Origin: Candidatus Iainarchaeum sp. | GTDB taxonomy: Archaea > Iainarchaeota > Iainarchaeia > Iainarchaeales > JAZDDZ01 | Assembly: GCA_043809245.1 (NCBI GenBank) | Contig: JAZDDZ010000054.1 | Location: forward strand, 32,001 to 96,000 | DNA length: 64,000 nt | Direction: 5' to 3' | Shown: positions 17,076-54,025 of the stretch, in pieces | How positions within the stretch are numbered: position 1 is the stretch's first letter | How the letters are laid out: each line of letters starts with the position of its first letter | Made by a program: the position numbers and the translations under genes | Notes under the pieces: generated by a model | Database searches by the model: none | Seen by the model: the letters and a program-made list of their open reading frames with translations, nothing else | What the model was told of the DNA's origin: nothing

Positions 17076-17154
17076 AAGATTTAGGAAAAATATATAGAGG
17101 AAGGGAATCGGGAGGAACCTGGAACTGAAGGGAAACCTAGGTTTCCCTGCGGTT
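17076..17154 (+). repeat. Dispersed 79-bp hairpin element, copy A (rps14-rps8)
   Basis: AAGATTTAGGAAAAATATATAGAGGAAGGGAATCGGGAGGAACCTGGAACTGAAGGGAAACCTAGGTTTCCCTGCGGTT; perfect 20-bp palindrome at 17129-17148. Confidence 0.85.
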
Positions 17155-17157
17155 CGG

Positions 17158-17181
17158 ATGGGGTTCAAAAAATTTGACTGA
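17158..17181 (+). repeat. Recoded duplicate of the rps14 3' end (MGFKKFD*)
   Basis: ATG GGG TTC AAA AAA TTT GAC TGA versus ATG GGT TTC AAG AAA TTC GAT TAG at 17040-17063. Confidence 0.8.
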
Positions 17182-17203
17182 ATTTGGAGTTTGTGGAGAG
17201 TGA

Positions 17204-17602
17204 ATGAGAATGACATTGGTTGACCCGATTGCTGACGCGCTAGTCAACATAAAGAACCACGAGAATGCCTCGAAAAAACTATGCATTGTCAGGCCTGCGG
17301 CAAAGCTTTTGGGCGAAATACTGCGCGTCATGCAGGAGCAGGGCTACATCAGCACCTACGAGTTCGTTGATGATGGAAGGGAGGGCCTTTACAAGATAAA
17401 CCTTATGGGAAAAATAAACGAGTGCAAGGCAATCAAGCCCCGGTACGCAGTCAGGAAAAACGAGTTTGAAAGATACGAGAAAAGGTATCTTCCCGCAAAA
17501 GACGTGGGCTCGTTGATTGTGAGCACCCCCCGCGGGGTTATGACGCACAATGGCGCAAAGGAAAAGGAAATCGGCGGAAGGCTGATAGCTTACATTTACT
17601 GA
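17204..17602 (+). CDS. rps8: 30S ribosomal protein S8 (uS8)
   Basis: DPIADAL..IKN.E, G.IN.C.AIKPR, IVST..GVMTH, GG.LIAY.Y. Confidence 0.98.
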   Translation: MRMTLVDPIADALVNIKNHENASKKLCIVRPAAKLLGEILRVMQEQGYISTYEFVDDGREGLYKINLMGKINECKAIKPRYAVRKNEFERYEKRYLPAKDVGSLIVSTPRGVMTHNGAKEKEIGGRLIAYIY

Positions 17603-17631
17603 ATGAAAAAAATTGATGGAAAAGTGGGATT

Positions 17632-18195
17632 ATGGAAGACTTTGAAAGGAAAATCAGCTTGCCGGAAGGATTTGAGGCTTCGGCTGAGGGAAGCAAGATG
17701 ACTGTCGGCTTCAAGGGAAAACAACTGGTTAAGGACTTCCACGCGCAATCGCTTTCATTCGATGTAAAGGGAAAAGAAATAGTGGTTTCAATCGCGAACG
17801 GAAAGGCAAAGAAAAGGGATTTGGCTGTGTTGAACGCAGTAAATTCCGAGATAAACAACATGCTTGCAGGGTTGTCAAAGGGATTCGAGTACAAGTTAGA
17901 GGTCGTGTACGCGCACTTCCCGATGAACATCAGTGTCAAGGAAAAAGTTGTGGAAATAAGCAATCTCTGCGGAAGCAAGATGGTCAGAAGGGCGGCAATT
18001 GTCGGTGAAACAAAGGTAGAGATAAAGGGAAAAGAGATATTTGTCAGGGGCGCGGACAAGGAAGCCGCAGGGCAGACAGCGGCAAACATAGAGCAGGCAA
18101 CAAGGCTGTCGGGAAAAGACGTAAGGGTATTCAACGACGGCATTTACATTGTTTCAAAGCCGCATGTTTCAATTGAAGAGCGTGAAAAGAAATGA
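17632..18195 (+). CDS. rpl6: 50S ribosomal protein L6 (uL6)
   Basis: GF.YKL.VVYAHFP, AGQTAANIEQAT, D.RVF.DGIYI. Confidence 0.97.
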   Translation: MEDFERKISLPEGFEASAEGSKMTVGFKGKQLVKDFHAQSLSFDVKGKEIVVSIANGKAKKRDLAVLNAVNSEINNMLAGLSKGFEYKLEVVYAHFPMNISVKEKVVEISNLCGSKMVRRAAIVGETKVEIKGKEIFVRGADKEAAGQTAANIEQATRLSGKDVRVFNDGIYIVSKPHVSIEEREKK

Positions 18196-18821
18196 CTGAA
18201 AAAAAATCTGTGAAGAAAGCGGAAAAGCCGAAGGCAAAGAATGCCGTGAAAAAAGAAGAGAAAAAGGCGGCTGTGGAAAAAGTGCACGAAAAAAAAGAGC
18301 ACAATGAAGCCGCAAAGCAAGTTGAGGAAAAAAAAGAGGCTGCAAAAGAGTCTTTGGGAAAAGGAAAAGATGCAAAGGAAGCAAAGGGAAAAAAGGCGAA
18401 GAAAGAAAAGCCGTCAAAGCCCAAGGCAAAAGGCAGGGGCAAAGGGCTTTCGGAAGAGGTTAAAAAGCTGAGGAAACAAATCGCCAGAAAAAAACTGCCT
18501 TCATTCAGGGGCAGGTTCGGCGAAAGGGGAAGGACAAGGAAGATAAGCAGGGAGAAATTCATGAAGTGGAGGAAGCCGCGCGGCATTGACATTAAGTTCA
18601 AGCAAGAGGACGGCGCGCTTCCAAGGACTGGTTACAAGGCCCCGAGAGAGATAAGGTTTTTGCATCCCTCGGGTTTCAGGGAAGCCCTTGTTTCAAATGC
18701 AATGCAGCTTGAAATGTTTGAAAAGAATGTGGTTGCAAGGATTGCGGGAACAGTTGGAGAAAAGAAGAGAAGGGAAATTGTGAAGAAAGCCAAGGAATTG
18801 GGTGTGAGGCTGCTTAATTGA
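18192..18821 (+). CDS. rpl32e: 50S ribosomal protein L32e with Lys/Glu N-terminal extension
   Basis: KWRKPRGID, GY..P..IR.LHPSG.RE.LV.N, VG.KKR..I. Confidence 0.95.
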   Translation: MTEKKSVKKAEKPKAKNAVKKEEKKAAVEKVHEKKEHNEAAKQVEEKKEAAKESLGKGKDAKEAKGKKAKKEKPSKPKAKGRGKGLSEEVKKLRKQIARKKLPSFRGRFGERGRTRKISREKFMKWRKPRGIDIKFKQEDGALPRTGYKAPREIRFLHPSGFREALVSNAMQLEMFEKNVVARIAGTVGEKKRREIVKKAKELGVRLLN

Positions 18822-18846
18822 TTTGCGCTTTGAAAAGGTGTGAAAG

Positions 18847-19299
18847 ATGATATTGGATAAAATCAGGGAAATTTCCGCAGGGCTGCTGAAAATAGGCAAA
18901 AGCAAGGTCTGGTTTGACTCAGAAAAGCTTGACCAGATAAAGGAAGCCATGACTAAAGAGGATGTCAGGGGCCTTATAGCGGAAAAAGCGATAGGGAAGA
19001 AAAAGCCCTCACAGCACAGCAGGGGAAGGGCAAGGGTCCTGCACCAGAAAAAGAAAAAGGGAAGAAAAAGGGGCTACGGCAAAAGAAAAGGCCTTCAAAG
19101 CGCGAGGGAGAAAACAAAGGAGAAATGGATGCTGCTCTCAAGGGCTTTGAGGAAAAAGCTCAAGGAAATGAAGGGCAAAAAGGAAAAATTGAAGGTGGAT
19201 TACAGGAAGCTTTATAATTTAAGCAAGGGCGGCTACTTTAAGGGAAAAAAATACCTTGAGGCTTACGCGCTTGGAAAAGAAACCAAGGAGAAAAAATAG
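18847..19299 (+). CDS. rpl19e: 50S ribosomal protein L19e
   Basis: G..KVW.D, SRGRAR, GRKRG.G.RKG, YR.LY...KGG.F. Confidence 0.96.
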   Translation: MILDKIREISAGLLKIGKSKVWFDSEKLDQIKEAMTKEDVRGLIAEKAIGKKKPSQHSRGRARVLHQKKKKGRKRGYGKRKGLQSAREKTKEKWMLLSRALRKKLKEMKGKKEKLKVDYRKLYNLSKGGYFKGKKYLEAYALGKETKEKK

Positions 19300-19321
19300 C
19301 AAAGGAAAGGAATGAATTGTT

Positions 19322-19837
19322 ATGACACATAAAACAACCTACACTATGCCCTTCAGAAGGAGAAGAGGGGAGAAAACAAATTACAAGAAAAGGCTTGCAT
19401 TGCTCAAGTCAGGCAAGCCAAGGCTTGTTGTCAGGAAAACTAACGCGAATTTTCTCGCGCAGATAGTGAAGTTCATGCCAAAGGGAGATGAAACAGTCGC
19501 ATCAGCGAATTCAAGCGAACTGAAAAAATTCGGCTGGAACAGCCATAAGGGAAATTTGCCCACCGCATACCTCGTTGGGTTTGCATGCGCACTCAAGGCA
19601 AAGAAAAAGGAAGTGAAAGAAGCAGTGCTTGACATAGGGCTTTATACGCCGGTGCACGGCTCAAGGGTTTTCGCGGCGCTCAAGGGCGCGGTTGACGCGG
19701 GCATGCAAATAGCGCTTGACGAAAAGGTTTTCCCGAAAGAGGAAAGGCTCAAAGGAAAGCACATAAGCGAAAAAATCGCGCAGGAATTCGAAAAGGCAAA
19801 AAAAGAGATTGAGTTAAAGATAGGTGAAGCGAAATGA
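19322..19837 (+). CDS. rpl18: 50S ribosomal protein L18 (uL18)
   Basis: FRRRR..KTNY.KRL.LLKS, N.P.AYL.G, LDIGL, FAALKGAVDAG. Confidence 0.97.
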   Translation: MTHKTTYTMPFRRRRGEKTNYKKRLALLKSGKPRLVVRKTNANFLAQIVKFMPKGDETVASANSSELKKFGWNSHKGNLPTAYLVGFACALKAKKKEVKEAVLDIGLYTPVHGSRVFAALKGAVDAGMQIALDEKVFPKEERLKGKHISEKIAQEFEKAKKEIELKIGEAK

Positions 19838-20649
19838 GTGAAAAAGAAAGCGCAAAAAAGAAGGAAGAAAAAGTGAAGACTGTGGAAGAAGAGGAAGCCG
19901 TTGAGGCGGTAGTGGAAGCCGTGGAACTGCCTGAAGCAGTTGCGGACGATGAAGAAATCGGAGAAAGGTTTGAGAGCCTTGACAAAAGAGACGAAAGGAT
20001 GAGGGCACTCGATAAATGGGTTCCGCGGACAGAGTTGGGGAGAAAAGTCAAGGACAAGGAGATAAGCTCCCTTGAAGAGGTGTTCCAGAAAAATTACAAG
20101 ATAATGGAGCCGCAGATAGTCGACTCTCTTTTGGGCGATGTACATGAAAAAATGATTGGCTTTACCAAGACCACAAGGGTTATTGCAGCTGGAAGGCAGT
20201 TTTCGTTCCGGGCAGCGGTTATTGTAGGGGATGGAAAGAGCTATGTCGGCGTTGGAACAGGAAAGGACCGCGAGAGATGGCCTGCAATAAGGAAAGCGGG
20301 AAAAAACGCAAAACTGCACTTGATTAAGGTAAGGAAAGGCTGCGGAAGCTGGGAGTGCACGTGCGGAACCTCGCATTCAGTGCCGTTCAAAGTTGAGGGA
20401 AGTTCCAGTTCAGTCAGGGTAATACTTTACCCTGCGCCAAAGGGAACAGGCCTTGTGATAGGCGACAAGGTAAAGGATGTTTTAAGGTTTGTCGGAATAC
20501 GGGATGTCTGGAGCGACACAAGGGGCAGCACGGATACAACACTTGACTTTGTGCAGGCGACAATCAATGCTTTAAGCAAGACAACCTCGATGAAGGTTTC
20601 AAATGACATCGAGGCAAAAACAAAGGGAAATGAAAGGGGAGAATACTAA
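19834..20649 (+). CDS. rps5: 30S ribosomal protein S5 (uS5) with acidic N-terminal extension
   Basis: WVPRT.LGR.VK, GCGSWEC.CG..HS.PF.V.G, PAPKG.GLV. Confidence 0.97.
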   Translation: MSEKESAKKKEEKVKTVEEEEAVEAVVEAVELPEAVADDEEIGERFESLDKRDERMRALDKWVPRTELGRKVKDKEISSLEEVFQKNYKIMEPQIVDSLLGDVHEKMIGFTKTTRVIAAGRQFSFRAAVIVGDGKSYVGVGTGKDRERWPAIRKAGKNAKLHLIKVRKGCGSWECTCGTSHSVPFKVEGSSSSVRVILYPAPKGTGLVIGDKVKDVLRFVGIRDVWSDTRGSTDTTLDFVQATINALSKTTSMKVSNDIEAKTKGNERGEY

Positions 20650-21116
20650 TGTTTGCAGTGATTAGAATCAGGGGCAGCGTTGACTTGAATTCCGAGAAAA
20701 AGAAAACCCTCGAATTTCTCAGGCTTGACAGGGTAAACCATTTGGTGCTTGTGCCGCAGACAGCGAGCATAAAGGGAATGGTGAAAAAAGTCGAGGACAC
20801 AGTAACCTTTGGGGAAATAAACGATGAAACCATTGGAAAGCTGATTGAGAAAAGGGGAAGAATGCAGGGAGACAAGATTTTCGGGACAGCGGGCTTGAAG
20901 AAGGCAGCTGGCAAGGCAAAGGACTTCAAGGAATTGGGCCTGGCATTGCTGCAGGGAAGGGTTTCACTTAAAGAACTGGGTTTGAAGCCAGTGTTCAGGC
21001 TCAGGCCGCCGAGAAAAGGCTTTGAAAGAAAGGGAATAAAGAGAAACTTTTCAATCGGGGGCGCAGCAGGTTACAGGGGAACGGAAATAAACAAATTAAT
21101 CGAGAAAATGATTTAA
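20649..21116 (+). CDS. rpl30: 50S ribosomal protein L30 (uL30)
   Basis: AVIRIRG, TL..LRL..VNH, PVFRL.PPRKG, G..GYRG..IN.L..M. Confidence 0.96.
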   Translation: MFAVIRIRGSVDLNSEKKKTLEFLRLDRVNHLVLVPQTASIKGMVKKVEDTVTFGEINDETIGKLIEKRGRMQGDKIFGTAGLKKAAGKAKDFKELGLALLQGRVSLKELGLKPVFRLRPPRKGFERKGIKRNFSIGGAAGYRGTEINKLIEKMI

Positions 21117-21141
21117 TGGAAAAATGCGTTTGGTGAAAAAA

Positions 21142-21639
21142 ATGACTGTAAGGAAGAGAAGAAAAGTAAACAAGATGCGCGGAAAAAGGCTGCATGGCGC
21201 CGGGGACACCAAGAACAGGCGCGGCTCTGGCTGCAGGGGCGGGGTAGGACGCGCGGGCAACCACAAGCACAAATTCACCAAATACTACATGGAATTCGGG
21301 ACAAAAATAACTCTGAAGGCAAAGCAAAAAGGCAAGGCAATCAACCTCGATGATTTGCAGAAAAACCTCGCGAAATGGATTGGCGAAAAAAAGGTTGAAA
21401 AGGCCTCGGGAACAATTGAGTTCGACGGAAAGAAAGTTGGCATTGCAAAAATCCTTTCAAGGGGAAGCATCAGCGAAAAAATTTCATTCAAAAACGTTTC
21501 ATTCAGCGAAAATGCAAGGCAAAAAGTGCTCGCTGCGGGCGGAAAAATCGAGGGCACGGCAAAAGAAGAAGGATTTGGCGAGGAAGACGATGACTTTGAG
21601 GCAGCCGGGGAAAACGAAGAGGGAAAAGCGGAGAAGTGA
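21142..21639 (+). CDS. rpl15: 50S ribosomal protein L15 (uL15)
   Basis: RG.R.HG.G..K.RRG.G.RGG.G.AG..KHK, KIL..G, A..K...AGG. Confidence 0.96.
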   Translation: MTVRKRRKVNKMRGKRLHGAGDTKNRRGSGCRGGVGRAGNHKHKFTKYYMEFGTKITLKAKQKGKAINLDDLQKNLAKWIGEKKVEKASGTIEFDGKKVGIAKILSRGSISEKISFKNVSFSENARQKVLAAGGKIEGTAKEEGFGEEDDDFEAAGENEEGKAEK

Positions 21640-21646
21640 AAATTGA

Positions 21647-23041
21647 ATGGGTTTCCTTGAATGGTTTGAACCGATTTACAGGCTTTTGCCCGAAGTAAAA
21701 AGCCCTGAAGTAAAGCCGACCCTGAAAAAAAGGCTGATGTGGACAGCACTTGCGCTTGTAATTTTTTACATAATGGGAAACATCCAGGTTATTGGGATAA
21801 CCGCTTCATCTGCAGGGCAGCTTGAGCAACTGCAGGTAATACTTGCATCCGAAATAGGAACACTGATTACGGTTGGAATTGGCCCAATTGTTTTGGCTTC
21901 AATTATTCTGCAGCTTTTGATTGGAGGCGGCCTGATTGACGCGGACTTGACTGACCCGAAAACAAAGGCAAGGTTCACTTCAATGCAGAAACTCATGGCC
22001 ATAGTGCTCTGCTTTTTTGAGTCAGCAATTTACGTCTTAAGCGGATTCATTGCCCCTGACCCGGGAATGCTTCTGTTTGTCGTATTACAGATTTCCTTGG
22101 GCGCAATATTATTGATTTACCTTGATGAAGTTGTTTCAAAGTACGGCATTGGTTCAGGCATTGGATTGTTCATTGCGGCAAACGTCGCGGGAAGCGTGTT
22201 CTGGAGGGTTTTCGCTCCGCCAATCGCTTTACAGGGCCAGCTCGCGGGCGGAATTTTAAGCCAGTTCATTGACTCTGTCGCAAGCGGAAGCATTAACCTG
22301 ATAATATTGCTGCCGTTGCTTTTCACGTTAATTGTTTTTGTCGTGGTAACATTCGCGGAAGGAATGCATGTGAACATTCCGCTCACGATGGGCCCTCGCG
22401 GAGTGGGCGGAAGGTTTCCCGTCAAATTCCTTTACGTTTCAAACATTCCAGTCATACTTGCAGCAGCGCTATTCGCTAATTTGCGGCTGTGGGCAGAGTT
22501 CACTAAAACCGTGCCAGTATTGGGGTATGTGTTAAATGGAGTTGCTACAATTGTTGTCGCGCCTTACGGCCTGATTGAAAAAATGCTTTTACAGGGAGTT
22601 TCATTTGACGTTTTCGGGCAAATGCTTGACAGCATATTGAAATTACAGATAATAGGGCTTGGAGGCGAAATAATACACGCGATCCTCTACATAATTATTT
22701 TGACTGTGCTTTGTGTTGTTTTCGGAAAATTCTGGGTTGACATGGGCGGACAGGGCACTGAAGCCGTGAGCAACCAATTGCAGAAAGCGGGAATGAGCAT
22801 CCCAGGTTTCAGGAAGGACCCGCGCATTATAAGGAAAGTGCTTGAAAGGTACATTCCCCCTGTAACTGTTTTGGGCTCGATTTTCGTGGGGTTGCTTGCT
22901 GGCTTTGCGGACTTGACAGGCGCGCTTGGCTCAGGCACAGGCATACTGCTAACGGTTGGAATTGTTTACAGGCTTTACGAGGACCTTGCAAAAGAGCAGG
23001 TTGCGGAAATGTACCCAATGCTTGGAAGGTTTTTCACTTGA
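21647..23041 (+). CDS. secY: Preprotein translocase subunit SecY/Sec61-alpha
   Basis: GI.PIV.ASII.QLL, SKYG.GSGI.LFIA, YVSNIPVIL, IPGFR.D.R, GTGILLTV.I. Confidence 0.98.
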   Translation: MGFLEWFEPIYRLLPEVKSPEVKPTLKKRLMWTALALVIFYIMGNIQVIGITASSAGQLEQLQVILASEIGTLITVGIGPIVLASIILQLLIGGGLIDADLTDPKTKARFTSMQKLMAIVLCFFESAIYVLSGFIAPDPGMLLFVVLQISLGAILLIYLDEVVSKYGIGSGIGLFIAANVAGSVFWRVFAPPIALQGQLAGGILSQFIDSVASGSINLIILLPLLFTLIVFVVVTFAEGMHVNIPLTMGPRGVGGRFPVKFLYVSNIPVILAAALFANLRLWAEFTKTVPVLGYVLNGVATIVVAPYGLIEKMLLQGVSFDVFGQMLDSILKLQIIGLGGEIIHAILYIIILTVLCVVFGKFWVDMGGQGTEAVSNQLQKAGMSIPGFRKDPRIIRKVLERYIPPVTVLGSIFVGLLAGFADLTGALGSGTGILLTVGIVYRLYEDLAKEQVAEMYPMLGRFFT

Positions 23042-23183
23042 ACGAGGAAGGGGAATTGATTGGAATAAGGGAAATTTTTAATGAAAGGGGCATGGGTTTA
23101 ATAATGAATGGCAGCAAAAATAATTATACGCAAATAACGCCATTTTGCTTCAAATCCCCCGTTAAATGGCTTAAAAAGGTGGT

Positions 23184-23678
23184 TTGCTGATGGTTATTTT
23201 CTCCCCAATCATAGACATTGCATTGGTTGCCTTTGGCTTGGCATTGGTTTCAATGGTCCTGCAGGTGAAGCTTTTCAAGAAAAGGGAGAAGGCATTAATT
23301 CAGAAAAAAATCAAGGAAATACAGAAAAAAATAAGCGAGCTCACAAAAAAAGGCGGGGACAAAAAGGAAATTGACAGGCTGCAGGAGGAAATGTTAAAGC
23401 TGTTGAACGAGCAGATGAAGGACATGCCAAAGCAGATGATTGTCTCAATGATAATCTTCCTTCCCCCATTTTACTTCATCCGCGAAATTTACGGAAACAG
23501 CATTCACATGCTGCATCCTTTCGGCCTTGACATACCCCTTTTTGGAACAACAATGGGCTGGTTTGAGGTGTACATAATTTGCTCGCTTATCTCGAGCCTT
23601 GTGCTGAATGCAATTGTTGACGCTTACGAGAAAAATAAAGTAAAAAATGAAAACGGAAACAAAATTGTTAAGGGATAA
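23184..23678 (+). CDS. DUF106 / EMC3-TMCO1 (Oxa1-superfamily) membrane protein
   Basis: TM, coiled coil, two TMs with GW..Y.I.S; conserved slot between secY and rpl34e. Confidence 0.85.
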   Translation: MLMVIFSPIIDIALVAFGLALVSMVLQVKLFKKREKALIQKKIKEIQKKISELTKKGGDKKEIDRLQEEMLKLLNEQMKDMPKQMIVSMIIFLPPFYFIREIYGNSIHMLHPFGLDIPLFGTTMGWFEVYIICSLISSLVLNAIVDAYEKNKVKNENGNKIVKG

Positions 23679-23681
23679 TTG

Positions 23682-24023
23682 ATGCCGAGAAGAAGCCAAA
23701 GGTCAAAGAGCAAAAAGTTCAGGAAGACTCCTGGGGGAAAAACAAAGACGCATTACTTTAAGGGCAAGGGAAGCAAGCACGAGTGCGCTTCATGCGGAAA
23801 GCAATTGCACGGAGTGCCGCATTCAAGGAAAAACTTTGAGGTAAGGAACCTTTCGAAAAGCCAGAGAAGGCCAAGCGCATTGTTCGGCGGCGTGCTCTGC
23901 GGAAAATGCAGGCGCATTGTTGTAGAGGAAACCGCAAAAGTAAAGCACGGATTGAAGGAAGCGGGGGATGTTTCGCTTTCGTTGAAAAAATTCGTGGAAC
24001 AGGCAATGAAAAAAGTTGATTAA
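23682..24023 (+). CDS. rpl34e: 50S ribosomal protein L34e
   Basis: KTPGG, C..CG..L.GV, KSQRRP...GG.LC..C. Confidence 0.93.
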   Translation: MPRRSQRSKSKKFRKTPGGKTKTHYFKGKGSKHECASCGKQLHGVPHSRKNFEVRNLSKSQRRPSALFGGVLCGKCRRIVVEETAKVKHGLKEAGDVSLSLKKFVEQAMKKVD

Positions 24024-24027
24024 GGGA

Positions 24028-24261
24028 ATGTTTATGGCTGGAGCAATAGAGATTGGAAGCATTTGCGTTAAGACCACTGGCAGAAGCGCGGGAAAAACCG
24101 CTGTAGTGGTTGACTTTGACAAGGAAGGCTTTGCGGTTATTGACGGCACTGCGCTGAAAAGAAAAAAATGCAATATAAGGCATTTATTGCCCACTGGAAA
24201 AAAAGTTGAGATAAAAAAAGGCGCCTCGCACGAAGAAGTGGTTAAAAAATTAAAGGGGTAA
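24028..24261 (+). CDS. rpl14e: 50S ribosomal protein L14e
   Basis: IG.ICVKT.GR.AG...VVVD, KRKKCNI.HL.PT. Confidence 0.93.
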   Translation: MFMAGAIEIGSICVKTTGRSAGKTAVVVDFDKEGFAVIDGTALKRKKCNIRHLLPTGKKVEIKKGASHEEVVKKLKG

Positions 24262-24270
24262 TTGGTTTTT

Positions 24271-24900
24271 ATGGCTGAAGAAAAACAGGAAAAGAAAGGC
24301 GCACAGCAGAAAGACGGGGGCCAGCGCCAGCACAAGCAGCCTTACTCAAAAGACCTGAGGCTCAGGGCAAGGGACACAGAAGACAAGGATGTTAGGTACA
24401 TTGTCAGAATTGCGGGAAAGGACCTTGACGGAAGCCTTCCGGTTTACCATGCGGTTCAGTCAATTAAGGGAATAGGCCAGAGAATGGGAAAAATAATCGC
24501 ATTTGCGTTTGAAAAGGAATCAGGCATTGGCTCTGAAACTCCTTTGGGAAAAATTCCCGAAGACAAGGACAAGGCATTGGAGGAAATAGTTCTGCATCCC
24601 GAGAAATTCGGGGCGCCTTCATGGACACTTAACAAGCGCAGGGACTTTGAAACAGGCTTGGACTGGCACCCTGTAATGAACGACTGGGATTTTGGAATAA
24701 GAAAAGACGTGCAGAGAATGGCGGAGACAAAATCTTACAAGGGATTAAGGCACATGTGGGGCCAGCCAGTGAGAGGGCAAAGGACAAAGAGCACGCACAG
24801 GGGCAAAGGCCCTGTTGTAGGGGTAATGAAGAAAGACGCAGGCAAGCCAGGCGCCGCGGCAGCACCCGGGGCAAAAGGCGAAAAGGAAAAAAAGAAATAA
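24271..24900 (+). CDS. rps13: 30S ribosomal protein S13 (uS13)
   Basis: RYIVRIAG.DLDG, IKGIG, SYKG.RH..G.PVRGQRTKS. Confidence 0.97.
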   Translation: MAEEKQEKKGAQQKDGGQRQHKQPYSKDLRLRARDTEDKDVRYIVRIAGKDLDGSLPVYHAVQSIKGIGQRMGKIIAFAFEKESGIGSETPLGKIPEDKDKALEEIVLHPEKFGAPSWTLNKRRDFETGLDWHPVMNDWDFGIRKDVQRMAETKSYKGLRHMWGQPVRGQRTKSTHRGKGPVVGVMKKDAGKPGAAAAPGAKGEKEKKK

Positions 24901-24911
24901 AAAAAGGAGCT

Positions 24912-24990
24912 AAGATGAAATAAAAATCTGCGGAGGAAGGGGGTCAGGAAGACCCTGAAACTGGGGGGAAACCCTAGGTTTCCCGCGGTT
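24912..24990 (+). repeat. Dispersed 79-bp hairpin element, copy B (rps13-rps4)
   Basis: AAGATGAAATAAAAATCTGCGGAGGAAGGGGGTCAGGAAGACCCTGAAACTGGGGGGAAACCCTAGGTTTCCCGCGGTT. Confidence 0.8.
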
Positions 24991-25017
24991 TGGAAGGAAA
25001 AGAAAAAGTGATGATTT

Positions 25018-25650
25018 ATGGGCGACCCGAAAAAAACCTCAAGGCAGTATGAAAGGCCGAAAAAAAGATGGCAGAAGCAGAGGATAGAGAGCGAGAAGAA
25101 GATACTTGAAATCTACGGCCTGAAAAACAAAAGGGAATTAAGGAGAGCCGAGACAATTTTAAGGAAGAAAAGGCAGAGCGCAAGAAAGCTCCTTGCATTG
25201 CCTTTGGAGAAAAGGGAGAAAAAGGAACGCGAACTCGTTGAAAGCCTGATTAGAATGGGGCTGTTCAAGGCAAAGGCAACAGCCGACGACATCTTAAGCC
25301 TTTCAATTGAGGAACTTCTTGAGAGAAGGCTGCAGACAATCATCTGGAGAAAAAACCTGGCAAAGACAGTCAAGCAGGCAAGGCAGTTCATCGCCCATGG
25401 GCACATTGCGGTTAACGGAGTAAAGACAACAAGCCCGAGCTACATTGTAAGGCACGGCGAAGAGGCAAAAATAGCCTATTACAAGAGGCCGATAATGCTT
25501 GAACCCCCAAAAAAAGACTCAAAGGAAAAAATGAAGAAAGCATTCGAGGAAGCAGCGCCCGCAGCAATTGAAGCCGCAGAGGAAGCAAAGGCAGGGGCAG
25601 TTGAAGCCGCGGCTGAAAAGAAAGAAACTCCTGTGGAGGCAAAGCAATGA
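25018..25650 (+). CDS. rps4: 30S ribosomal protein S4 (uS4)
   Basis: [30 protein letters not shown]. Confidence 0.98.
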
Positions 25651-26039
25651 GCGACAAAATAAAGCGCGGAATAATCCACATTTACGCATCGCACAACAAC
25701 ACAATTATTTTGCTTACAGACCCCACTGGAGCGGAAACGATTGCAAAGTGCTCCGGGGGCATGGTTGTAAAGGCACAGCACAAAGAGGGCTCCCCTTATG
25801 CTGCAATGAAGGTAGCGGAAATCGTGGCGGAAAAGGCAAGGGAAAAAGGGATAACTAATGTCAAGATAAGGGTCAGGGCACAGGGAGGCATCAAGCCCCG
25901 TTCACCAGGCCAGGGCGCCGAGGCCGCAATTGTTTCGCTTACAAGGCACGGAATGATGATAGAGGACATTGAAAATGTCACGCCTTTGCCTCACGACGGC
26001 TGCAGGAGAAAAAAAAGGAACAGGAGCAAAAAAACTTAA
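25647..26039 (+). CDS. rps11: 30S ribosomal protein S11 (uS11)
   Basis: HIYAS.NNTI...TD.TGAET, SPYAAM, PG.GA..AI, I..VTP.PHDG.R. Confidence 0.98.
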
Positions 26040-26077
26040 TTGCAAATAAAAATGCATGAAAATTATTTGAAGGTGAA

Positions 26078-26659
26078 ATGAAAATGGAAGTAAAAGTTGT
26101 TTCGGATAAGGGCGCAATGCTGAAGTTCTCGGTTAAGGGAACTGATTCCGCGTTCGCGAACGCGTTGAGGAGAACTGTAATGAACAACGTGCCGGTTTTC
26201 GCGATAGAGGATGTCTCGTTTTACGAGAACAGCGGCGTGGTATTCGATGAAATGCTTGCGCACAGGCTTGCACTGCTGCCAATCAAAATGGATTTAAAGC
26301 ACTACAAGGAAGGCGAAAGCGTCACAATGATGCTTGAAAAGGAAGGCCCTGGAATGGTGTACAGCAAGGACGTGAAAAGCACTGACCCCAAAATAGAGGT
26401 CATAGACAAAAGGATTCCCCTCACAAAGCTCAAAAAAGGGCAGAAGCTAAAGATTGAAATGAAGGCAGTGGCTGGAGTGGGAAAAGAGCACGCCAAATGG
26501 CAGCCCGCAATAATCGCTTACGAACAGCACGGCGAGGACGCATTCACTTTCATGATGGAAAGCCACGGCAACCTCGACAACGGGGAAACAGTGAAGGCGG
26601 CAGTTGAAAGGTTAAGGGAGAAAACCGCGGAATTCAAGAAAGCATTAAAAGACATCTGA
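26078..26659 (+). CDS. rpoD: RNA polymerase subunit D (Rpo3), short form without the Cys-rich Fe-S insert
   Basis: ANALRR...VP..AI.DV...EN....DE.LAHRL.L.P, G.G..HAKWQP. Confidence 0.95.
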   Translation: MKMEVKVVSDKGAMLKFSVKGTDSAFANALRRTVMNNVPVFAIEDVSFYENSGVVFDEMLAHRLALLPIKMDLKHYKEGESVTMMLEKEGPGMVYSKDVKSTDPKIEVIDKRIPLTKLKKGQKLKIEMKAVAGVGKEHAKWQPAIIAYEQHGEDAFTFMMESHGNLDNGETVKAAVERLREKTAEFKKALKDI

Positions 26660-47741: not shown

Positions 47742-47746
47742 GCTGA

Positions 47747-48220: not shown

Positions 48221-48224
48221 GGTA

Positions 48225-48304
48225 AAGATTTAGGAAAAATGCATAGAGGAGAGGGGTCAGGATTAACATAAAACTGGGGGAGAACATTAGGTTCTCCCGC
48301 GGTT
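48225..48304 (+). repeat. Dispersed 80-bp hairpin element, copy C (ndk-dut)
   Basis: AAGATTTAGGAAAAATGCATAGAGGAGAGGGGTCAGGATTAACATAAAACTGGGGGAGAACATTAGGTTCTCCCGCGGTT. Confidence 0.85.
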
Positions 48305-48331
48305 TTGAAAAAGTGAAAGGTGAAAAAAGTA

Positions 48332-48763
48332 ATGAAGGTTTTGGTGAAAAAACTCGGCGCGGAAGTCAAAGACCTGAAATTTGCGCATGAGGGAGACGCG
48401 GGCGTTGACCTTTACGCAAACGAAACCGTGGAATTGAAGCCAATGGAGAAAATGCTTGTTTGCACGGGAATAAAAATCGCTTTGCCAAAGGGATTTGAGG
48501 CGCAGGTACGGCCGAAAAGCGGCCTGGCAGCGGAACACGGAATAACTGTTCTCAATACTCCCGGAACAATTGATGCTGGTTACAGGGGGGAAGTGAAAGT
48601 GATTCTCATAAACCTCGGGGGCAAGGCATACACTGTTGAGAAAGGGAAGAAAATCGCTCAAATGGTTTTCAACAAAATCGAGGAACCGGAAATAGTTGAA
48701 GTGGAAGAGCTTGATGAAACCAGCAGGGGAGAAGGCGGTTTTGGGTCCACGGGACTGCATTAG
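48332..48763 (+). CDS. dut: Trimeric dUTPase
   Basis: [35 protein letters not shown]. Confidence 0.97.
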
Positions 48764-48779
48764 GCAAGAGATGGTTTTT

Positions 48780-50534: not shown

Positions 50535-50589
50535 GTGTTATGGTAAAAAATTTCATTGAAAAAAAATGTTTTTGTTGGAGGGATTGAAA

Positions 50590-51060
50590 GTGAAACTGGT
50601 TATTTCTGACCCGAAAAGCGGGAAGGCTTTCTCGAAAAACGTGGAGGACTCAGCGATTTTCATCGGGAAAAAAATAGGCGAAGAGATTTCATTGGACAGC
50701 ATTGGCCTGGGAGGATACACCGCCAAAATATCGGGTGGTTCGGACAAGGATGGCTTTCCGATGAGAATGGATTTAAGCGGCGCCGCAAGGAGGAAGATTT
50801 TCATTGTGTCAGACAAAAGAAGCGGCACAAAAATCAGGATTTCAAAAAGAGGAAACACGGCGGGAAAGGAAACAAGCCAGCTGAACCTTGTGGTATCAAA
50901 GCACGGCTCAACGCCTTTCCAGGAATTAATGCCGAAAGAAAAAGTTGAGGTTAAACAGGAATCAGTCAAGGAACAGATGATAAAGGAAAGCCACGAGGCG
51001 GCTGCGAAAATGAGCGCTGAAGAGGCAAGAAAATTCATAAAGGGAAAGGCAAAGGCGTAA
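50590..51060 (+). CDS. rps6e: 30S ribosomal protein S6e
   Basis: VISDPK.G, IG.KIG, I.GGSD.DGFPM, RGN......QLN. Confidence 0.93.
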   Translation: MKLVISDPKSGKAFSKNVEDSAIFIGKKIGEEISLDSIGLGGYTAKISGGSDKDGFPMRMDLSGAARRKIFIVSDKRSGTKIRISKRGNTAGKETSQLNLVVSKHGSTPFQELMPKEKVEVKQESVKEQMIKESHEAAAKMSAEEARKFIKGKAKA

Positions 51061-51085
51061 AAAAATGAGAAAGAGGAATTGATGC

Positions 51086-52294: not shown

Positions 52295-52679
52295 AAAAAA
52301 GGCCAGGGGCGTGGCGCTTGACGCGAACATGCTTTTGGCGGTAGAGCAGTTCAGGGTTGATTTGAAAGAGGGGTTGAAGAATATTTTCGGCGGAAAAATA
52401 GAGGTTGTTGTTCCAACGCAAGTCATGGAAGAACTTGAAAGGCTGGGTGGAAAGGAAAAAAAGCTGCAGAGGGCTGCAAGTGTTGCGGAAAAGGTTTTGA
52501 AGCAATTGAATGCAGTGGAAAAAAAAGTGGATGCGCGGAATGCGGATGAAGCGCTTCTTTTGCTTTCGGAAAAAGGTTACATTGTTGCGACAAATGACTG
52601 GGAATTGAAGAAAAAAATCATGAAGAAAGGCGGCAAAGTGCTGCATTTGAGGCAGAAAAAGCGCTTGGAGTTCGCGTAA
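52278..52679 (+). CDS. PIN-domain nuclease (Fcf1/Utp24-like)
   Basis: LDAN.L, VP..V.EEL, AD..L, VATND..L; conserved slot after aIF2g. Confidence 0.88.
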   Translation: MESSGEKKARGVALDANMLLAVEQFRVDLKEGLKNIFGGKIEVVVPTQVMEELERLGGKEKKLQRAASVAEKVLKQLNAVEKKVDARNADEALLLLSEKGYIVATNDWELKKKIMKKGGKVLHLRQKKRLEFA

Positions 52680-52761
52680 CGAAATGCTGTTAAATTGATG
52701 CGGAATGTTGCGTTTTTTAAGTTATTGGTGAAAAAAATCTGAAAAGGAGTTGAAATAAAAC

Positions 52762-53379
52762 ATGTACGCGGTTTGCAGTGTAAGGGACACGGTAAGGGTT
52801 CCGCCAAGCGATTTGGGCGGAAGCCTCAGGAAAGCCATGCTTAAGCTGACGAGGCAGACTTACGAGGGATTAATGGATGAGGACATAGGGGTTGTTGTAA
52901 CGGTTTTAGAGGTTGAAAACATCGGCGAGGGAAGGGTTATTCCCGGAGACGGCGCGGTTTATGTTCCCGCTGACATAAAAATGCTTGTATACAAGCCGGA
53001 AATGCATGAAGTCGTTGAAGGGTTTGTGACCGAGATAACGGAGTTTGGCGCTTTCCTGAGGACAGGGCCTGTTGAAGGCTTGATTCACGTGAGCCAGGTC
53101 ATGGATGACTACATCAATTACGATGCGAAAAACAAGGTTCTCACGGGAAAACAGCACAAGAAAAAGCTTGGGGTTGGAGACGACGTGTTTGCAAAGGTTG
53201 TGAGCATTTCATTTAAGGGAAACATTTCGAATTCAAAAATAGGCTTGACCATGAGGCAGGAAGGATTGGGAAAAGCGGATTGGAAAAAAATTGACGACAA
53301 GGCGGTAAAAATAAAGGAACGTGAAATAAAAAGCGAAAAAAAGCCGGAAAAAAAAGATAAAAGCGAGGGAAAGAAATGA
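52762..53379 (+). CDS. rpoE1: RNA polymerase subunit E' (Rpo7)
   Basis: D.VRVPP, G.G...PGDG, FGAF...GP..GL.H.SQ..D, IGLTMRQ.GLGK. Confidence 0.96.
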   Translation: MYAVCSVRDTVRVPPSDLGGSLRKAMLKLTRQTYEGLMDEDIGVVVTVLEVENIGEGRVIPGDGAVYVPADIKMLVYKPEMHEVVEGFVTEITEFGAFLRTGPVEGLIHVSQVMDDYINYDAKNKVLTGKQHKKKLGVGDDVFAKVVSISFKGNISNSKIGLTMRQEGLGKADWKKIDDKAVKIKEREIKSEKKPEKKDKSEGKK

Positions 53380-53570
53380 ATAAGGGAAAGGCTTGCAGGC
53401 AATGCAGGCGTGTAATAGAGGAAGGCGACAAGTGCCCGGTATGCGGGGGAAGCGCTTTCACAACCTTCTGGAGGGGCTATGTTGTAATCATTGACTCGGA
53501 AAAGTCCGAGATAGCGCAGAAAATGGGTATAACCACGCAGGGAAGGTTTGCGTTAAGGCTTAGCAGGTAA
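53376..53570 (+). CDS. spt4: Spt4 / RpoE'' elongation factor
   Basis: ACR.C......CP.CG......W.G...I.D...SEIA.K.GI...G..AL. Confidence 0.95.
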   Translation: MNKGKACRQCRRVIEEGDKCPVCGGSAFTTFWRGYVVIIDSEKSEIAQKMGITTQGRFALRLSR

Positions 53571-53591
53571 AAAGGAAAAGGAGAGGAGAGA

Positions 53592-53936
53592 TTGAAGCTG
53601 AACATATATTCAAGGGAAAAGAACCCTTTGCTTGAAAGGGAGGAAATAAGCTTTGGCGTTGAAAGCGCAAGCGTAACCCCTTCAAGGAAAGATGTCAGGG
53701 CGAAAATCGCGGCGCTTGTGAACGCGAAAGAGGAAACCGTTGTCATTGAACAGTTAAGGCAGCGCTTTGGCGAAAAAAAAACCGAGGGAACCGCAAGGGT
53801 TTACGCGTCTGTTGAAAAAATGAACAAAATAGAGCCCAAGCACCTTGTTGAAAGGAATTTCGGCGGCGGAAAAAAAGGGAAAAAGGAAGGCGAAGCAGAA
53901 GAAGCGCCAAAGGAAGATAAAAAAGCCGAAAAATGA
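53592..53936 (+). CDS. rps24e: 30S ribosomal protein S24e
   Basis: NPLL.R.E, TPSR..V...IAA, FG.....G.A.VY, EP.HL..RN. Confidence 0.94.
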   Translation: MKLNIYSREKNPLLEREEISFGVESASVTPSRKDVRAKIAALVNAKEETVVIEQLRQRFGEKKTEGTARVYASVEKMNKIEPKHLVERNFGGGKKGKKEGEAEEAPKEDKKAEK

Positions 53937-53946
53937 AAAACAGTTT

Positions 53947-54025
53947 AAGATGAAGGAAAAATATATGCAGGAGGGGAATCAGGAAATACCTAAAACTGAA
54001 GGGGAACCTGGGTTCCCCTGCGGTT
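53947..54025 (+). repeat. Dispersed 79-bp hairpin element, copy D (rps24e-rps27ae)
   Basis: AAGATGAAGGAAAAATATATGCAGGAGGGGAATCAGGAAATACCTAAAACTGAAGGGGAACCTGGGTTCCCCTGCGGTT. Confidence 0.85.

What the first reader, a model, noticed from the sequence alone, without database searches (positions are those of the whole stretch)
17076..54025. Four copies of a 79-80 bp structured non-coding element inside translation operons
Seen: copies at 17076-17154 (rps14/rps8), 24912-24990 (rps13/rps4), 48225-48304 (ndk/dut) and 53947-54025 (rps24e/rps27ae). All are on the sense strand, start 4-12 nt after a stop codon, begin AAGAT and end GCGGTT. The 5' half is purine-rich (AAAAAT...AGGA.RGG..TCRGGA). The 3' half is a hairpin whose differences are compensatory: inner stems AGGGAAAC/GTTTCCCT, AGGGGAAC/GTTCCCCT, GGGAGAAC/GTTCTCCC and GGGAAAC/GTTTCCC; outer stem GAACTG/CGGTTC in copy A versus AAACTG/CGGTTT in B-D. 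Neighbouring r-protein genes are otherwise abutting or overlapping. Inference: either a non-autonomous hairpin-ended mobile element (REP/PATE-like, moved by an IS200/IS605-type HUH transposase in trans) or a cis-acting mRNA processing, stability or regulatory RNA. No mobilising enzyme is in the window and I do not recognise it as a named family.
Basis: partly seen in the sequence, partly recalled or inferred. Interest (0 to 1): 0.85.

Follow-up and report, generated by a model that had tools for sequence, protein, structure and literature searches.

The report
Small folded insertion repeat in archaea
A roughly 65-85-base folded DNA repeat has copied itself into gene junctions, and in frame into protein-coding genes, of a few small-genome archaea; it duplicates a piece of each target as it lands and seems to fold into a rare three-stranded structure.

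Summary
The four copies are real (78% column identity, compensatory hairpin). They belong to a family with 11 copies in this 1.48-Mb genome and 1-15 copies in ten other genomes, but only 8 of 151 genomes sampled from the order carry it. It is an insertion, not a conserved operon signal. The S14-S8 spacer is 140 nt here and -4 to 41 nt in 25 of 26 relatives. One copy lies in frame inside a phosphomannomutase gene whose orthologues (8 of 8 aligned) lack it; another lies inside a D-aminoacyl-tRNA deacylase. 15 of 41 copies are flanked by direct repeats of host sequence (13-54 nt), and the downstream repeat always starts at the element's fixed 3' end. At gene junctions the repeat re-creates the stop codon and start signals, which explains why operons tolerate it. 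A purine tract 5' of the hairpin is the mirror image of the hairpin's purine strand in copy after copy. That is the signature of a class I intrastrand purine-motif triplex, the kind known from bacterial BoxC/TMECO repeats. There is no Rfam match, no reverse transcriptase or Cas1, and no consistent IS200/IS605, DDE or TnpB partner. How it spreads is unresolved; I favour polymerase template switching. The REP/PATE reading is not supported and the regulatory reading is unlikely.

The parts
17076..17157 (+). Element copy A, between S14 and S8
   Evidence: E 4e-25
17097..17107 (+). Copy A purine tract S1 (proposed third strand); read backwards it equals the first 7 nt of the hairpin's 5' strand at 17128-17134
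17123..17154 (+). Copy A hairpin: outer stem AACTG/CGGTT with an invariant T.G pair, a 1x1 mismatch, and an inner purine/pyrimidine stem
17040..17063 (+). Upstream flank repeat X1 of copy A: the last 7 codons and stop codon of S14 (MGFKKFD*)
17158..17181 (+). Downstream flank repeat X2 of copy A: the same 7 codons and a stop, differing from X1 only at synonymous positions and in the stop codon (TAG vs TGA); followed by a 22-nt spacer and the S8 start
24912..24993 (+). Element copy B, between S13 and S4 (S1 at 24933-24943; hairpin at 24959-24990)
24883..24900 (+). Upstream flank repeat X1 of copy B: the last 5 codons and stop of S13 (KEKKK*); low-complexity, so weaker evidence
24994..25011 (+). 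Downstream flank repeat X2 of copy B: the same 5 codons and a stop (synonymous differences), 6 nt before the S4 start
48225..48307 (+). Element copy C, between NDK and dUTPase (S1 at 48246-48256; hairpin at 48272-48304); 95% identical in the core to a copy on another contig (G000 C4:25564)
53947..54028 (+). Element copy D, between S24e and S27ae (S1 at 53968-53978; hairpin at 53994-54025). A 30-codon ORF (53950-54042) spans it and stops directly before the S27ae ATG
16899..17063 (+). Ribosomal protein S14 gene
   Evidence: PF00253
17204..17602 (+). Ribosomal protein S8 gene
   Evidence: PF00410
24262..24900 (+). Ribosomal protein S13 gene
   Evidence: PF00416
25018..25650 (+). Ribosomal protein S4 gene
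   Evidence: PF01479, PF00163
47747..48220 (+). Nucleoside diphosphate kinase gene
   Evidence: PF00334
48320..48763 (+). dUTPase gene
   Evidence: PF00692
53592..53936 (+). Ribosomal protein S24e gene
   Evidence: PF01282
54043..54234 (+). Ribosomal protein S27ae gene
   Evidence: PF01599

Best explanation
The four copies belong to a family of short non-coding insertion repeats. The conserved core is about 65 nt; in this genome the propagating unit is about 82 nt. The family is scattered through a few small-genome archaea. Shown: each copy is an insertion into a site that is empty in relatives. Insertion often leaves a direct duplication of 13-54 nt of the target, and the downstream duplicate starts exactly at the element's fixed 3' end (...GGTTYGG). 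At gene junctions the duplicate restores the upstream gene's last codons and stop, and the downstream gene's start signals, so both genes survive. Inside genes the element is read through in one particular frame. Inferred from covariation: one strand, the gene-sense purine-rich strand, folds into a long hairpin. A purine tract 20 nt upstream of the hairpin, which is its mirror image, lies back along the hairpin's purine strand as a third strand (G.G-C, A.A-T and T.A-T triples). This is a class I intrastrand purine-motif triplex, a structure reported for DNA and not for RNA. Inferred, about 0.3 on its own: the element spreads without a transposase of its own, by polymerase template switching. 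A growing DNA strand leaves its template, copies an element elsewhere, and is released when the new strand snaps into the hairpin/triplex at the fixed 3' end. It then re-anneals through 1-3 nt of microhomology a little upstream of where it left, so that stretch is copied twice. Any effect on the neighbouring translation genes is a by-product.
For: Family and spread:
- 11 copies in this genome.
- 15, 7, 5 and 5 copies in four genomes of other families of the order.
- 8 of 151 genomes of the order carry it; so do 3 genomes of another order.

Empty sites:
- The S14-S8 spacer is 140 nt here, -4 to 41 nt in 25 of 26 relatives, and 88 nt in one.
- The 33-residue element-encoded segment between phosphomannomutase domains I and II is absent from 8 of 8 aligned orthologues.

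In-frame insertions:
- Found in a HerA-like ATPase, a D-aminoacyl-tRNA deacylase and an unnamed ORF, all in the same frame.

Flank repeats:
- 15 of 41 copies exceed the 99th percentile of 205 control pseudo-sites (control maximum 14, observed up to 38).
- In all 15 the downstream repeat starts -4 to +2 nt from the element's 3' end.

Structure:
- Hairpin: 96.1% of cells paired, 10 of 16 pairs compensatory, and an invariant T.G pair in 34 of 34 copies, which is strand-specific. The sense strand is about 7 kcal/mol more stable than the antisense.
- Mirror covariation: mean mirrored prefix 5.4 nt within copies against 1.8 between copies, reached by 0 of 10,000 permutations, with at least 15 different matched tract types. 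The non-mirrored comparison is at background.
- Two of the mismatches are T opposite A, which the purine motif allows (motif rules from passages of PMC4666352).

Mobilising enzymes:
- RVT_1 in 0 of 5 multi-copy genomes and Cas1 in 0 of 5.
- Y1_Tnp in 2 of 5, DDE_Tnp_1 in 3 of 5, TnpB in 2 of 5.
- The 15-copy genome (94% complete) has none of the five.

Movement between genomes:
- Element subfamilies are shared across genomes. 10 of 33 copies with an own-genome comparator are closest to a copy in another family's genome, at up to 90% identity, while S8 proteins of those genomes are 60-63% identical.
Against: - No intermediate, polymorphic site or enzyme was observed. The only sequencing runs found gave sparse contigs.
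- 26 of 41 copies show no significant flank repeat.
- The 15-nt linker (TCAGGA..ACCYT) is conserved in sequence across families. That suggests a protein partner I did not identify, which would argue against a purely passive mechanism.
- Differences between the two flank repeats are mostly synonymous in the upstream gene's frame: 18 synonymous to 6 non-synonymous, against 1 to 6 in chance matches. Simple in-place decay of a duplicate does not predict this (I expect roughly 40-50% synonymous). It fits better if one repeat came from a diverged allele by recombination or import.
- Copies are biased to the gene-sense strand. By a crude ORF call, 38 of 41 have a same-strand neighbour, and 4 of 4 intragenic copies are sense. 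An RNA-level role or selection would also explain this.
- The triplex rests on covariation only. Its 20-nt connecting loop is longer than in characterised intrastrand triplexes. Four copies of one G000 subfamily (H-K) keep only a 4-nt mirror match or none.
Confidence: 0.6

Rival explanations
1. It is a cis-acting RNA in the 5' UTR or between cistrons. It would set processing, stability or translation of the downstream gene, for example by keeping termination-reinitiation coupling or by supplying a protective 5' or 3' structure. Its spread would be secondary.
For: - All 11 copies in this genome lie on the sense strand, 0-165 nt upstream of a same-strand start or inside an ORF.
- There is a strong sense bias overall.
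- The hairpin has an invariant G.U-type pair and is more stable on the sense strand.
- Ribosomal-protein clusters host copies in three genomes, at different junctions.
- In copy D a 30-codon ORF spans the element and stops directly before the S27ae ATG.
- The core is conserved across families.
Against: - The operon sites are empty in 26 of 26 relatives.
- It was found in only 8 of 151 genomes of the order.
- Many copies elsewhere sit at convergent 3' ends, inside enzymes or against tRNA genes, with no downstream gene to regulate.
- Downstream genes are unrelated in function.
- The spanning ORF is closed by stop codons in copies A, B and C.
- A purine-motif triplex is reported not to form in RNA (passage of PMC4666352).
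Confidence: 0.12
2. It marks one end of imported or recombined DNA. A fragment ending at the element's 3' end (upstream gene end plus element) from a diverged relative is anchored by homology in the gene. It is then joined illegitimately at its free end, a little upstream in the recipient. This is homology-facilitated illegitimate recombination, or copy-choice between diverged chromosomes. The two flank repeats would then be two alleles of the same gene end.
For: - Differences between the flank repeats are mostly synonymous and both keep an in-frame stop. Examples: S14 end with 7 codons, and a 17-codon gene end in G004 including a TCC/AGC serine switch.
- The junction sits precisely at the element's 3' end with 1-3 nt of overlap.
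- Element subfamilies are shared between genomes of different families.
- The distribution is patchy.
Against: - It does not explain first arrival at a new locus.
- It does not explain insertions inside genes with short or no repeats (copies F, J), or identical repeats of 29-35 nt.
- Under a generous neutral model (about half of differences synonymous) the synonymous excess is only modestly significant. That is my estimate, not a formal test.
- No donor allele was found.
Confidence: 0.15
3. It is a REP/PATE-like non-autonomous element, cut and pasted as single-stranded DNA by an IS200/IS605-type Y1 HUH transposase (TnpA or RAYT) supplied in trans.
For: - It is hairpin-ended, strand-specific and has no terminal inverted repeats.
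- This genome has four Y1_Tnp matches.
- A strand bias is what single-strand transposition would give (recalled).
Against: - Y1_Tnp was not found in G004 (15 copies, 94% complete), G015 (5 copies, 97%, 2 contigs) or G022 (7 copies). It is present in 10 of 36 element-free relatives.
- There are long flank duplications, which this family does not produce (recalled).
- There is only one hairpin and no conserved short target word 5' of the insertions.
- The covariance model finds no related ends elsewhere in the genome, so the resident IS200/IS605 copies do not share it.
Confidence: 0.05
4. It is a SINE-like retroelement. A small RNA with a 3' hairpin would be copied by target-primed reverse transcription, giving a fixed 3' end, a ragged 5' junction and target duplications of variable length.
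For: - A fixed 3' junction with microhomology, 0-45 nt of unrelated filler at the 5' junction, and duplications of 13-54 nt.
- A sense-strand, G.U-containing fold.
Against: - RVT_1 was not found in any of the five multi-copy genomes, while the control genomes gave matches.
- There is no A-rich or other simple tail.
- I tested tRNA CCA-end priming by eye on three tRNA-adjacent copies and it did not fit.
Confidence: 0.06

Closest known systems
BoxC / PIT / TMECO intrastrand-triplex repeats of bacteria (Holder et al. 2015, PMC4666352: abstract and passages read; Hoyne et al. 2000 only as cited there)
   Same: An interspersed, multi-copy, non-coding repeat. One strand carries a pyrimidine tract, its purine complement, and a second purine tract that mirrors the first, so a purine-motif (G.G-C, A.A-T) intrastrand triplex can form. 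The bacterial repeats are linked in that paper to local rearrangement and polymerase arrest.
   Different: This element has class I order (third strand 5', then purine, then pyrimidine); TMECO is class II. Its connecting loop is 20 nt and conserved in sequence, against 1-6 nt in that paper's search, which would therefore not have found it. It has an extra outer stem. It is archaeal. It shows clear insertion footprints and in-frame insertions. There is no sequence similarity. Triplex formation here is untested.
Rickettsia palindromic elements (RPE) (recalled; Ogata et al. 2000 not read; listed as a term in papers)
   Same: A short structured repeat in a reduced genome. It inserts between genes and in frame inside protein-coding genes, where it is translated as an extra peptide segment. 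No mobilising enzyme is known.
   Different: A different domain of life and an unrelated sequence. This element has a single hairpin plus a mirror tract, long variable target duplications and a strong sense-strand bias. I did not compare sequences with RPE families.
REP/BIME and PATE elements mobilised by RAYT/TnpA (IS200/IS605 type) (recalled)
   Same: Small hairpin repeats without terminal inverted repeats, strand-specific, mostly between genes.
   Different: No co-occurring Y1 enzyme, target duplications present, and insertions inside genes.
MITEs (review PMC10969869 seen in listing only)
   Same: Short, non-autonomous, multi-copy, flanked by target duplications, sometimes carrying promoter-like sequence.
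   Different: No terminal inverted repeats. Duplication length is not fixed (13-54 nt). No shared DDE transposase.

Membership tests
Any Rfam 15 RNA family | Match to a curated covariance model | tested here: not met
   No match at gathering score on the whole window. No match on the element at E <= 10 in nine loci that carry it.
REP/PATE (IS200/IS605-dependent) | A Y1 HUH transposase or RAYT present in genomes that carry the repeat | tested here: not met
   PF01797 was found in 2 of 5 multi-copy genomes and in 10 of 36 element-free relatives.
REP/PATE (IS200/IS605-dependent) | Insertion without target duplication, 3' of a short specific word | tested here: not met
   15 of 41 copies have flank repeats above the 99th percentile of controls. 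No shared word lies 5' of the copies. The defining feature itself is recalled.
MITE | Terminal inverted repeats | tested here: not met
   The ends read are not complementary. The only inverted repeat is the internal hairpin.
MITE | Target duplication of fixed length set by a cognate DDE transposase | tested here: not met
   Duplications range from 13 to 54 nt. DDE_Tnp_1 is in 3 of 5 multi-copy genomes and not in the 15-copy genome.
Intrastrand purine-motif triplex repeats (class I) | Order 5' reverse-Hoogsteen purine tract, then purine strand, then pyrimidine strand, with the first tract mirroring the second | tested here: met
   Mirror match within copies 5.4 nt against 1.8 between copies, 0 of 10,000 permutations. 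Watson-Crick stem confirmed. Class definition taken from passages of PMC4666352.
Intrastrand purine-motif triplex repeats (class I) | Short connecting loops (1-6 nt in the ITxF search) | tested here: not met
   The tract and the hairpin strand are 20 nt apart in 38 of 41 copies as anchored.
Intrastrand purine-motif triplex repeats (class I) | Triplex formation shown physically (CD, NMR, melting, footprint) | not testable with these tools
   No tool here models triple helices. ViennaRNA gives only the hairpin.
RPE-like 'selfish DNA in genes' | In-frame insertion in conserved protein genes that is absent from orthologues | tested here: met
   Phosphomannomutase: 8 of 8 orthologues lack it. D-aminoacyl-tRNA deacylase: the insert lies inside the PF04414 match.
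RPE-like 'selfish DNA in genes' | Sequence relationship to Rickettsia RPE families | not tested
   No RPE sequence was available from a tool. blastn against plasmids and phages found nothing.
SINE-like retroelement | A reverse transcriptase available in the genome | tested here: not met
   PF00078 was found in 0 of 5 genomes, while control genomes gave matches.
Integron attC site | Conserved RYYYAAC and GTTRRRY boxes at the hairpin base; arrays of cassettes next to an integrase | tested here: not met
   Read by eye, the base is RAACTG / CGGTTYGG, which does not fit GTTRRRY. Copies are solitary and lie in housekeeping operons. The box consensus is recalled.

The most novel reading that the evidence does not exclude
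This is a new kind of prokaryotic mobile DNA that needs no transposase. A single strand folds into a hairpin clasped by a third purine strand. That fold releases a nascent strand at a fixed point and drives copy-choice insertion with long target duplications, both within a genome and between diverged genomes. This would make it the first case where an intrastrand triplex is the working part of a mobile element. A bolder variant: the long flank repeats act as pointers for frequent precise excision, which would explain why both repeats stay coding.
Probability: 0.22. Interest if true: 0.9.

Novelty: new variant of a known kind. Interest (0 to 1): 0.72.

Why it matters
Small repeats that lodge inside genes (RPE) and triplex-forming repeats (BoxC/TMECO) have been known for over twenty years, but nobody knows how they move.

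- This family leaves unusually readable footprints: a fixed 3' end, a ragged 5' junction, 13-54-nt duplications, empty sites and in-frame insertions. It also has a covariation pattern that points to a DNA triplex. That makes the mechanism testable with oligonucleotides and a polymerase.
- It shows that streamlined archaeal genomes, even their ribosomal-protein operons, DNA polymerase D operon and core enzymes, tolerate selfish insertions, because the duplication rebuilds stop and start signals.
- For annotation, it explains odd long spacers in otherwise abutting operons, and extra peptide segments in conserved proteins.
- If the flank repeats really are diverged alleles, the element also marks recombination between distant relatives.

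Tried and rejected
Searches that found nothing useful:
- Rfam at gathering score and at E <= 10: nothing on the element.
- ARAGORN on the window: no tRNA.
- The search for related loci with S4 in genome contigs returned only distant organisms and did not name the taxon. I therefore call the host a small-genome archaeon from its genes (PolD, S24e, S27ae, L21e, DUF2226) and from the 0.5-1.5-Mb relatives.
- Two degenerate core patterns in viral contigs: 0 hits.
- One pattern in metagenome contigs: 25 loci, of which only 1 (L102) matched the model.
- blastn against plasmids and phages: none.

Sequencing runs:
- No RNA holder was listed. Three DNA runs of one study were held as contigs.
- Laid on window 15000-26500 they covered only scattered 150-230-nt pieces and no element, with no joints. 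This gives no evidence either way on expression or on empty alleles.

Ideas dropped:
- A short 5' hairpin (AGG..CCT) in the linker: only 2-3 pairs and broken in copies C and E.
- C/D-box, H/ACA, K-turn, hammerhead, HDV-like, group II domain 5 and BHB-intron likenesses: considered by eye from recalled consensus sequences; none fitted and none appears in Rfam output.
- Priming by tRNA CCA ends: the three tRNA-adjacent copies have no CCA at the junction.
- A diversity-generating retroelement: the repeats are too short, the differences are synonymous rather than at adenines, and there is no reverse transcriptase.
- An ORF spanning the element that keeps translational coupling: present in copy D, closed by stops in A, B and C, and out of frame with the downstream repeat in several G004 copies (read).
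- Promoter module: the G000-specific 5' extension has a TATA-like run, but this part is not conserved in other genomes and was not tested further.

Literature searches found no description of this element or of triplex repeats in archaea. Supplementary tables of PMC4666352, which list motifs per genome and include archaeal genomes, were not available and could bear on that.

Rows dropped or mis-handled:
- One search aligned 8 of the 11 fetched orthologue loci; G005, G028 and G026 gave no ORF passing my filter.
- One search used 27 of the 30 loci; L107, L120 and L132 were left out.
- In one search, three of 41 rows (G000_K, G004_f, G022_f) were mis-anchored by my pattern and count as misses.
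- The ORF calls are crude: S14 was missed and some antisense ORFs were called.

Full report
OBSERVATION. Aligned with flanks they share 78% mean column identity. Their neighbours are S14/S8, S13/S4, NDK/dUTPase and S24e/S27ae by Pfam. They start 12, 11, 4 and 10 nt after the upstream stop codon. RNAalifold on the four predicts the 3' hairpin with 5 of 16 pairs showing double changes. Other gaps between genes of the ribosomal cluster are mostly 25 nt or less, or are overlaps, against 140 and 117 nt at the two occupied junctions (ORF list). Rfam has no match at its gathering scores or at E <= 10 on nine loci carrying the element.

FAMILY. An nhmmer profile of the four finds 11 copies in the 1.48-Mb, 55-contig genome. 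A covariance model (R1) confirms 11 full-length matches at E <= 3e-19 and nothing else convincing. The other seven lie as follows:
- between the two DNA polymerase D subunit genes;
- upstream of L21e;
- upstream of a proteasome subunit gene;
- upstream of a DUF2226 gene;
- upstream of a GIDE-like membrane protein gene;
- inside the reading frame of a phosphomannomutase gene;
- inside the reading frame of an intein-bearing HerA-like ATPase gene.

Among 40 relatives, each from a different family or genus of the same order, strong multi-copy matches occur in only four: G004 with 15, G022 with 7, G015 with 5 and G034 with 5. With a core model built from 34 copies of five genomes (A5, R2), 8 of 151 genomes sampled from the order have it. 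So do three genomes of one genus in another order of the class. The first 20-25 nt of the copies in this genome (AAGAT...) are not conserved in other genomes. The shared core runs from a purine tract to ...CCGCGGTTYGG.

IT IS AN INSERTION.
- The S14-S8 spacer is 140 nt here. It is -4 to 41 nt in 25 of 26 relatives and 88 nt, with an unrelated hairpin, in one (27 of 30 fetched loci were analysed).
- The phosphomannomutase copy encodes 33 residues between Pfam domains I and II. In 30 of 40 relatives the orthologue matches in two pieces that skip this segment. The segment is absent in 8 of 8 aligned orthologues (3 of 11 loci were dropped).
- In G015 one copy lies inside the D-aminoacyl-tRNA deacylase domain and another inside an unnamed ORF. 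All four intragenic copies are read in the same frame, giving G-x-G-Q-E-x-P-x-T-G.

FOOTPRINTS.
- Flank repeats: comparing 128 nt upstream with 98 nt downstream of each of 41 copies, 15 have a direct repeat scoring above the 99th percentile of 205 pseudo-sites in the same loci (control maximum 14; observed up to 38). In all 15 the downstream repeat begins -4 to +2 nt from the end of the conserved ...GGTTYGGA.
- Lengths run from 13 to 54 nt.
- The upstream repeat is separated from the core by 0-45 nt of unrelated sequence. In this genome that is 5-14 nt plus the genome-specific 5' extension.
- There are no terminal inverted repeats.
- At gene junctions the repeated stretch contains the last codons and stop of the upstream gene, and/or the ribosome-binding site and start of the downstream gene. 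Copy I repeats the DP1 stop and the DP2 start. Copy A repeats the last 7 codons and stop of S14 (17040-17063 and 17158-17181). Copy B repeats the last 5 codons and stop of S13.

AN UNEXPLAINED FEATURE. Where the two flank repeats differ, they differ mostly at synonymous positions of the upstream gene, and both keep an in-frame stop.
- S14 end: 4 synonymous codon differences among the 7 repeated codons, plus the stop TAG vs TGA. Three of the four fall in the segment scored; the fourth and the stop are read.
- A 17-codon gene end in G004: 4 codons, including TCC/AGC serine, and TAG vs TAA.
- A 12-codon end in G004: 3 codons.
- Over repeats defined by nucleotides alone and anchored at the element's 3' end, 18 differing codons are synonymous and 6 are not. 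In four unanchored chance matches the count is 1 to 6.
- If the downstream repeat were junk decaying in place, I would expect roughly 40-50% synonymous. That is my estimate. The excess is therefore suggestive, not conclusive.
- It fits better if the two repeats are diverged alleles brought together by recombination with, or import from, relatives. In line with this, 10 of 33 copies are most similar to a copy in a genome of another family, at up to 90% identity. The S8 proteins of those genomes are 60-63% identical.

STRUCTURE.
- Hairpin: on 34 copies the hairpin has 96.1% of 536 cells paired and 10 of 16 pairs with changes on both sides. No shuffle of 500 and no slid register comes close. One pair is T.G in 34 of 34 copies, so the fold belongs to the purine-rich, gene-sense strand. 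That strand folds about 7 kcal/mol better than its complement.
- Mirror tract: the purine tract just 5' of the conserved TCAGGA, read backwards, equals the 5' strand of the hairpin just after AACTG. The match changes from copy to copy; at least 15 different matched tracts occur.
- Mirror statistics: over 41 copies the mean mirrored prefix is 5.4 nt within copies and 1.8 between copies. Identity over 8 nt is 6.0 against 4.0. No permutation of 10,000 reaches this, and the same tracts compared without reversal are at background, 4.0. Copies are related, so the permutation count overstates independence. The number of distinct co-varying types is the stronger argument.
- Why a triplex: a mirror repeat of a purine strand cannot arise from copying and cannot form Watson-Crick pairs. 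It is what a purine-motif triple helix requires, with the third strand antiparallel to the duplex purine strand (G.G-C and A.A-T). Two exceptions are T opposite A, which that motif also allows.
- The order here is third strand, purine strand, pyrimidine strand. That is 'class I' in the scheme of Holder et al. 2015 (PMC4666352; abstract and passages read). That paper describes the bacterial BoxC/TMECO repeats (class II), shows they form triplexes as DNA, links them to local genome instability, and states that purine-motif triplexes do not form in RNA and can arrest polymerases.
- If the triplex is real it is most likely a property of single-stranded DNA. This rests on covariation only. The 20-nt conserved linker is much longer than the loops studied there.

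NO KNOWN ENGINE.
- In the five multi-copy genomes, RVT_1 is in 0 of 5, Cas1 in 0 of 5, Y1_Tnp in 2 of 5, DDE_Tnp_1 in 3 of 5 and the TnpB zinc-ribbon domain in 2 of 5.
- G004, with 15 copies and 94% completeness, has none of these.
- Y1_Tnp occurs in 10 of 36 element-free relatives.
- These are incomplete assemblies, so absence is not proven. But there is no association, and the REP/PATE model has no support.

ORIENTATION AND TARGETS.
- By a crude longest-ORF call, 38 of 41 copies have a neighbouring or enclosing ORF on their own strand, and 3 have only opposite-strand neighbours.
- Several copies touch tRNA genes. In three genomes of one genus, the element's 3' end lies 1-4 nt from the 3' end of a convergent tRNA: Cys, Arg and Pro, which are three different loci. 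In G004 one copy lies directly 5' of tRNA-Ala.
- Ribosomal-protein clusters carry copies in G000, G004 and G022, at different junctions.
- Gene ends therefore look like preferred or best-tolerated targets.

MECHANISM. Shown: insertion, the fixed 3' junction with 1-3 nt of overlap, the ragged 5' junction, variable duplications, the strand-specific hairpin and the mirror covariation. Inferred: the triplex. Further inferred, and my preferred model at about 0.3: a growing DNA strand switches from its template into an element elsewhere. It is released when the newly made strand folds at ...GGTTYGG. It then re-anneals by microhomology slightly upstream of its point of departure, duplicating that stretch. 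If the strand returns to a diverged homologous chromosome or to imported DNA, the two flank repeats would be different alleles. Rivals are a recombination/import junction (0.15), a cis-acting RNA (0.12), a SINE-like retroelement (0.06) and a Y1-mobilised REP/PATE (0.05).

COMPARISON AND NOVELTY. The element works like two known oddities at once. It resembles Rickettsia palindromic elements (in-frame insertion into genes; recalled) and the BoxC/TMECO intrastrand-triplex repeats (read). It is a member of neither by sequence. It differs from both in having a single hairpin with a distant mirror tract, long variable duplications, a sense-strand bias and an archaeal host. Four literature searches found no report of it. 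I rate it a new variant of a known kind, with a real chance that the mechanism is new.

LIMITS. There are no expression or population data: searches were uninformative. The taxon was not named by any tool. Gene calls around copies in other genomes are crude.

Noticed in passing
L005:1222-4104 (G000 C44) and L002:3600-7841 (G000 C49): The DNA polymerase D small-subunit gene and a HerA-like ATPase gene each carry an intein with a LAGLIDADG domain. Both genes also host or adjoin a copy of the element.
   Followed up: partly
L133 (G004 C35, S14-S8 junction): G004 has an 88-nt S14-S8 spacer holding a different, perfect GC-rich hairpin that is not related to this element. A second kind of insertion may use the same junction.
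   Followed up: no
L056:1501-1631, L058:1501-1642, L059:1501-1630 (G004): Three long variants carry about 55 extra nt in the hairpin's apical loop, forming two further small hairpins. Their flanks contain tRNA-like T-arm sequences that ARAGORN did not call; these may be intron-bearing or split tRNA genes.
   Followed up: partly
window 17084-17097 and the same part of copies D and E: The genome-specific 5' extension contains an A-rich run followed by TATATA, which looks like an archaeal BRE/TATA box (consensus recalled). It could give downstream genes an internal promoter. It is not conserved in other genomes.
   Followed up: no
window 53950-54042: A 30-codon ORF spans the whole of copy D and ends at a TGA directly followed by the S27ae ATG. 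This arrangement could preserve termination-reinitiation coupling.
   Followed up: partly
L007:1188-1430 (G000 C53): A DDE_Tnp_1 transposase C-terminal fragment lies 6 nt from copy K, on the opposite strand. The genome also has four Y1_Tnp matches and a TnpB gene on other contigs.
   Followed up: partly
L013-L019, L025 (G007, G009, G013, G016, G027, G030, G039): Weak matches (E 0.001-0.01) resemble only the 5' purine tract and the TCAGGA linker, without the hairpin. They may be a diverged or degraded relative of the family, or chance.
   Followed up: no
L072:40-215 (G047): The single copy in G047, together with about 100 nt upstream of it, is flanked by a 13-14-nt direct repeat. This would be a much longer inserted unit than elsewhere.
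   Followed up: no
L003:3550-3780 (G000 C44:22550-22780): Copy G, with an identical 35-nt flank repeat, replaces the lysine/glutamate-rich C-terminal tail of the upstream ORF with a tail encoded by filler plus element. It looks like the most recent insertion in this genome.
   Followed up: partly
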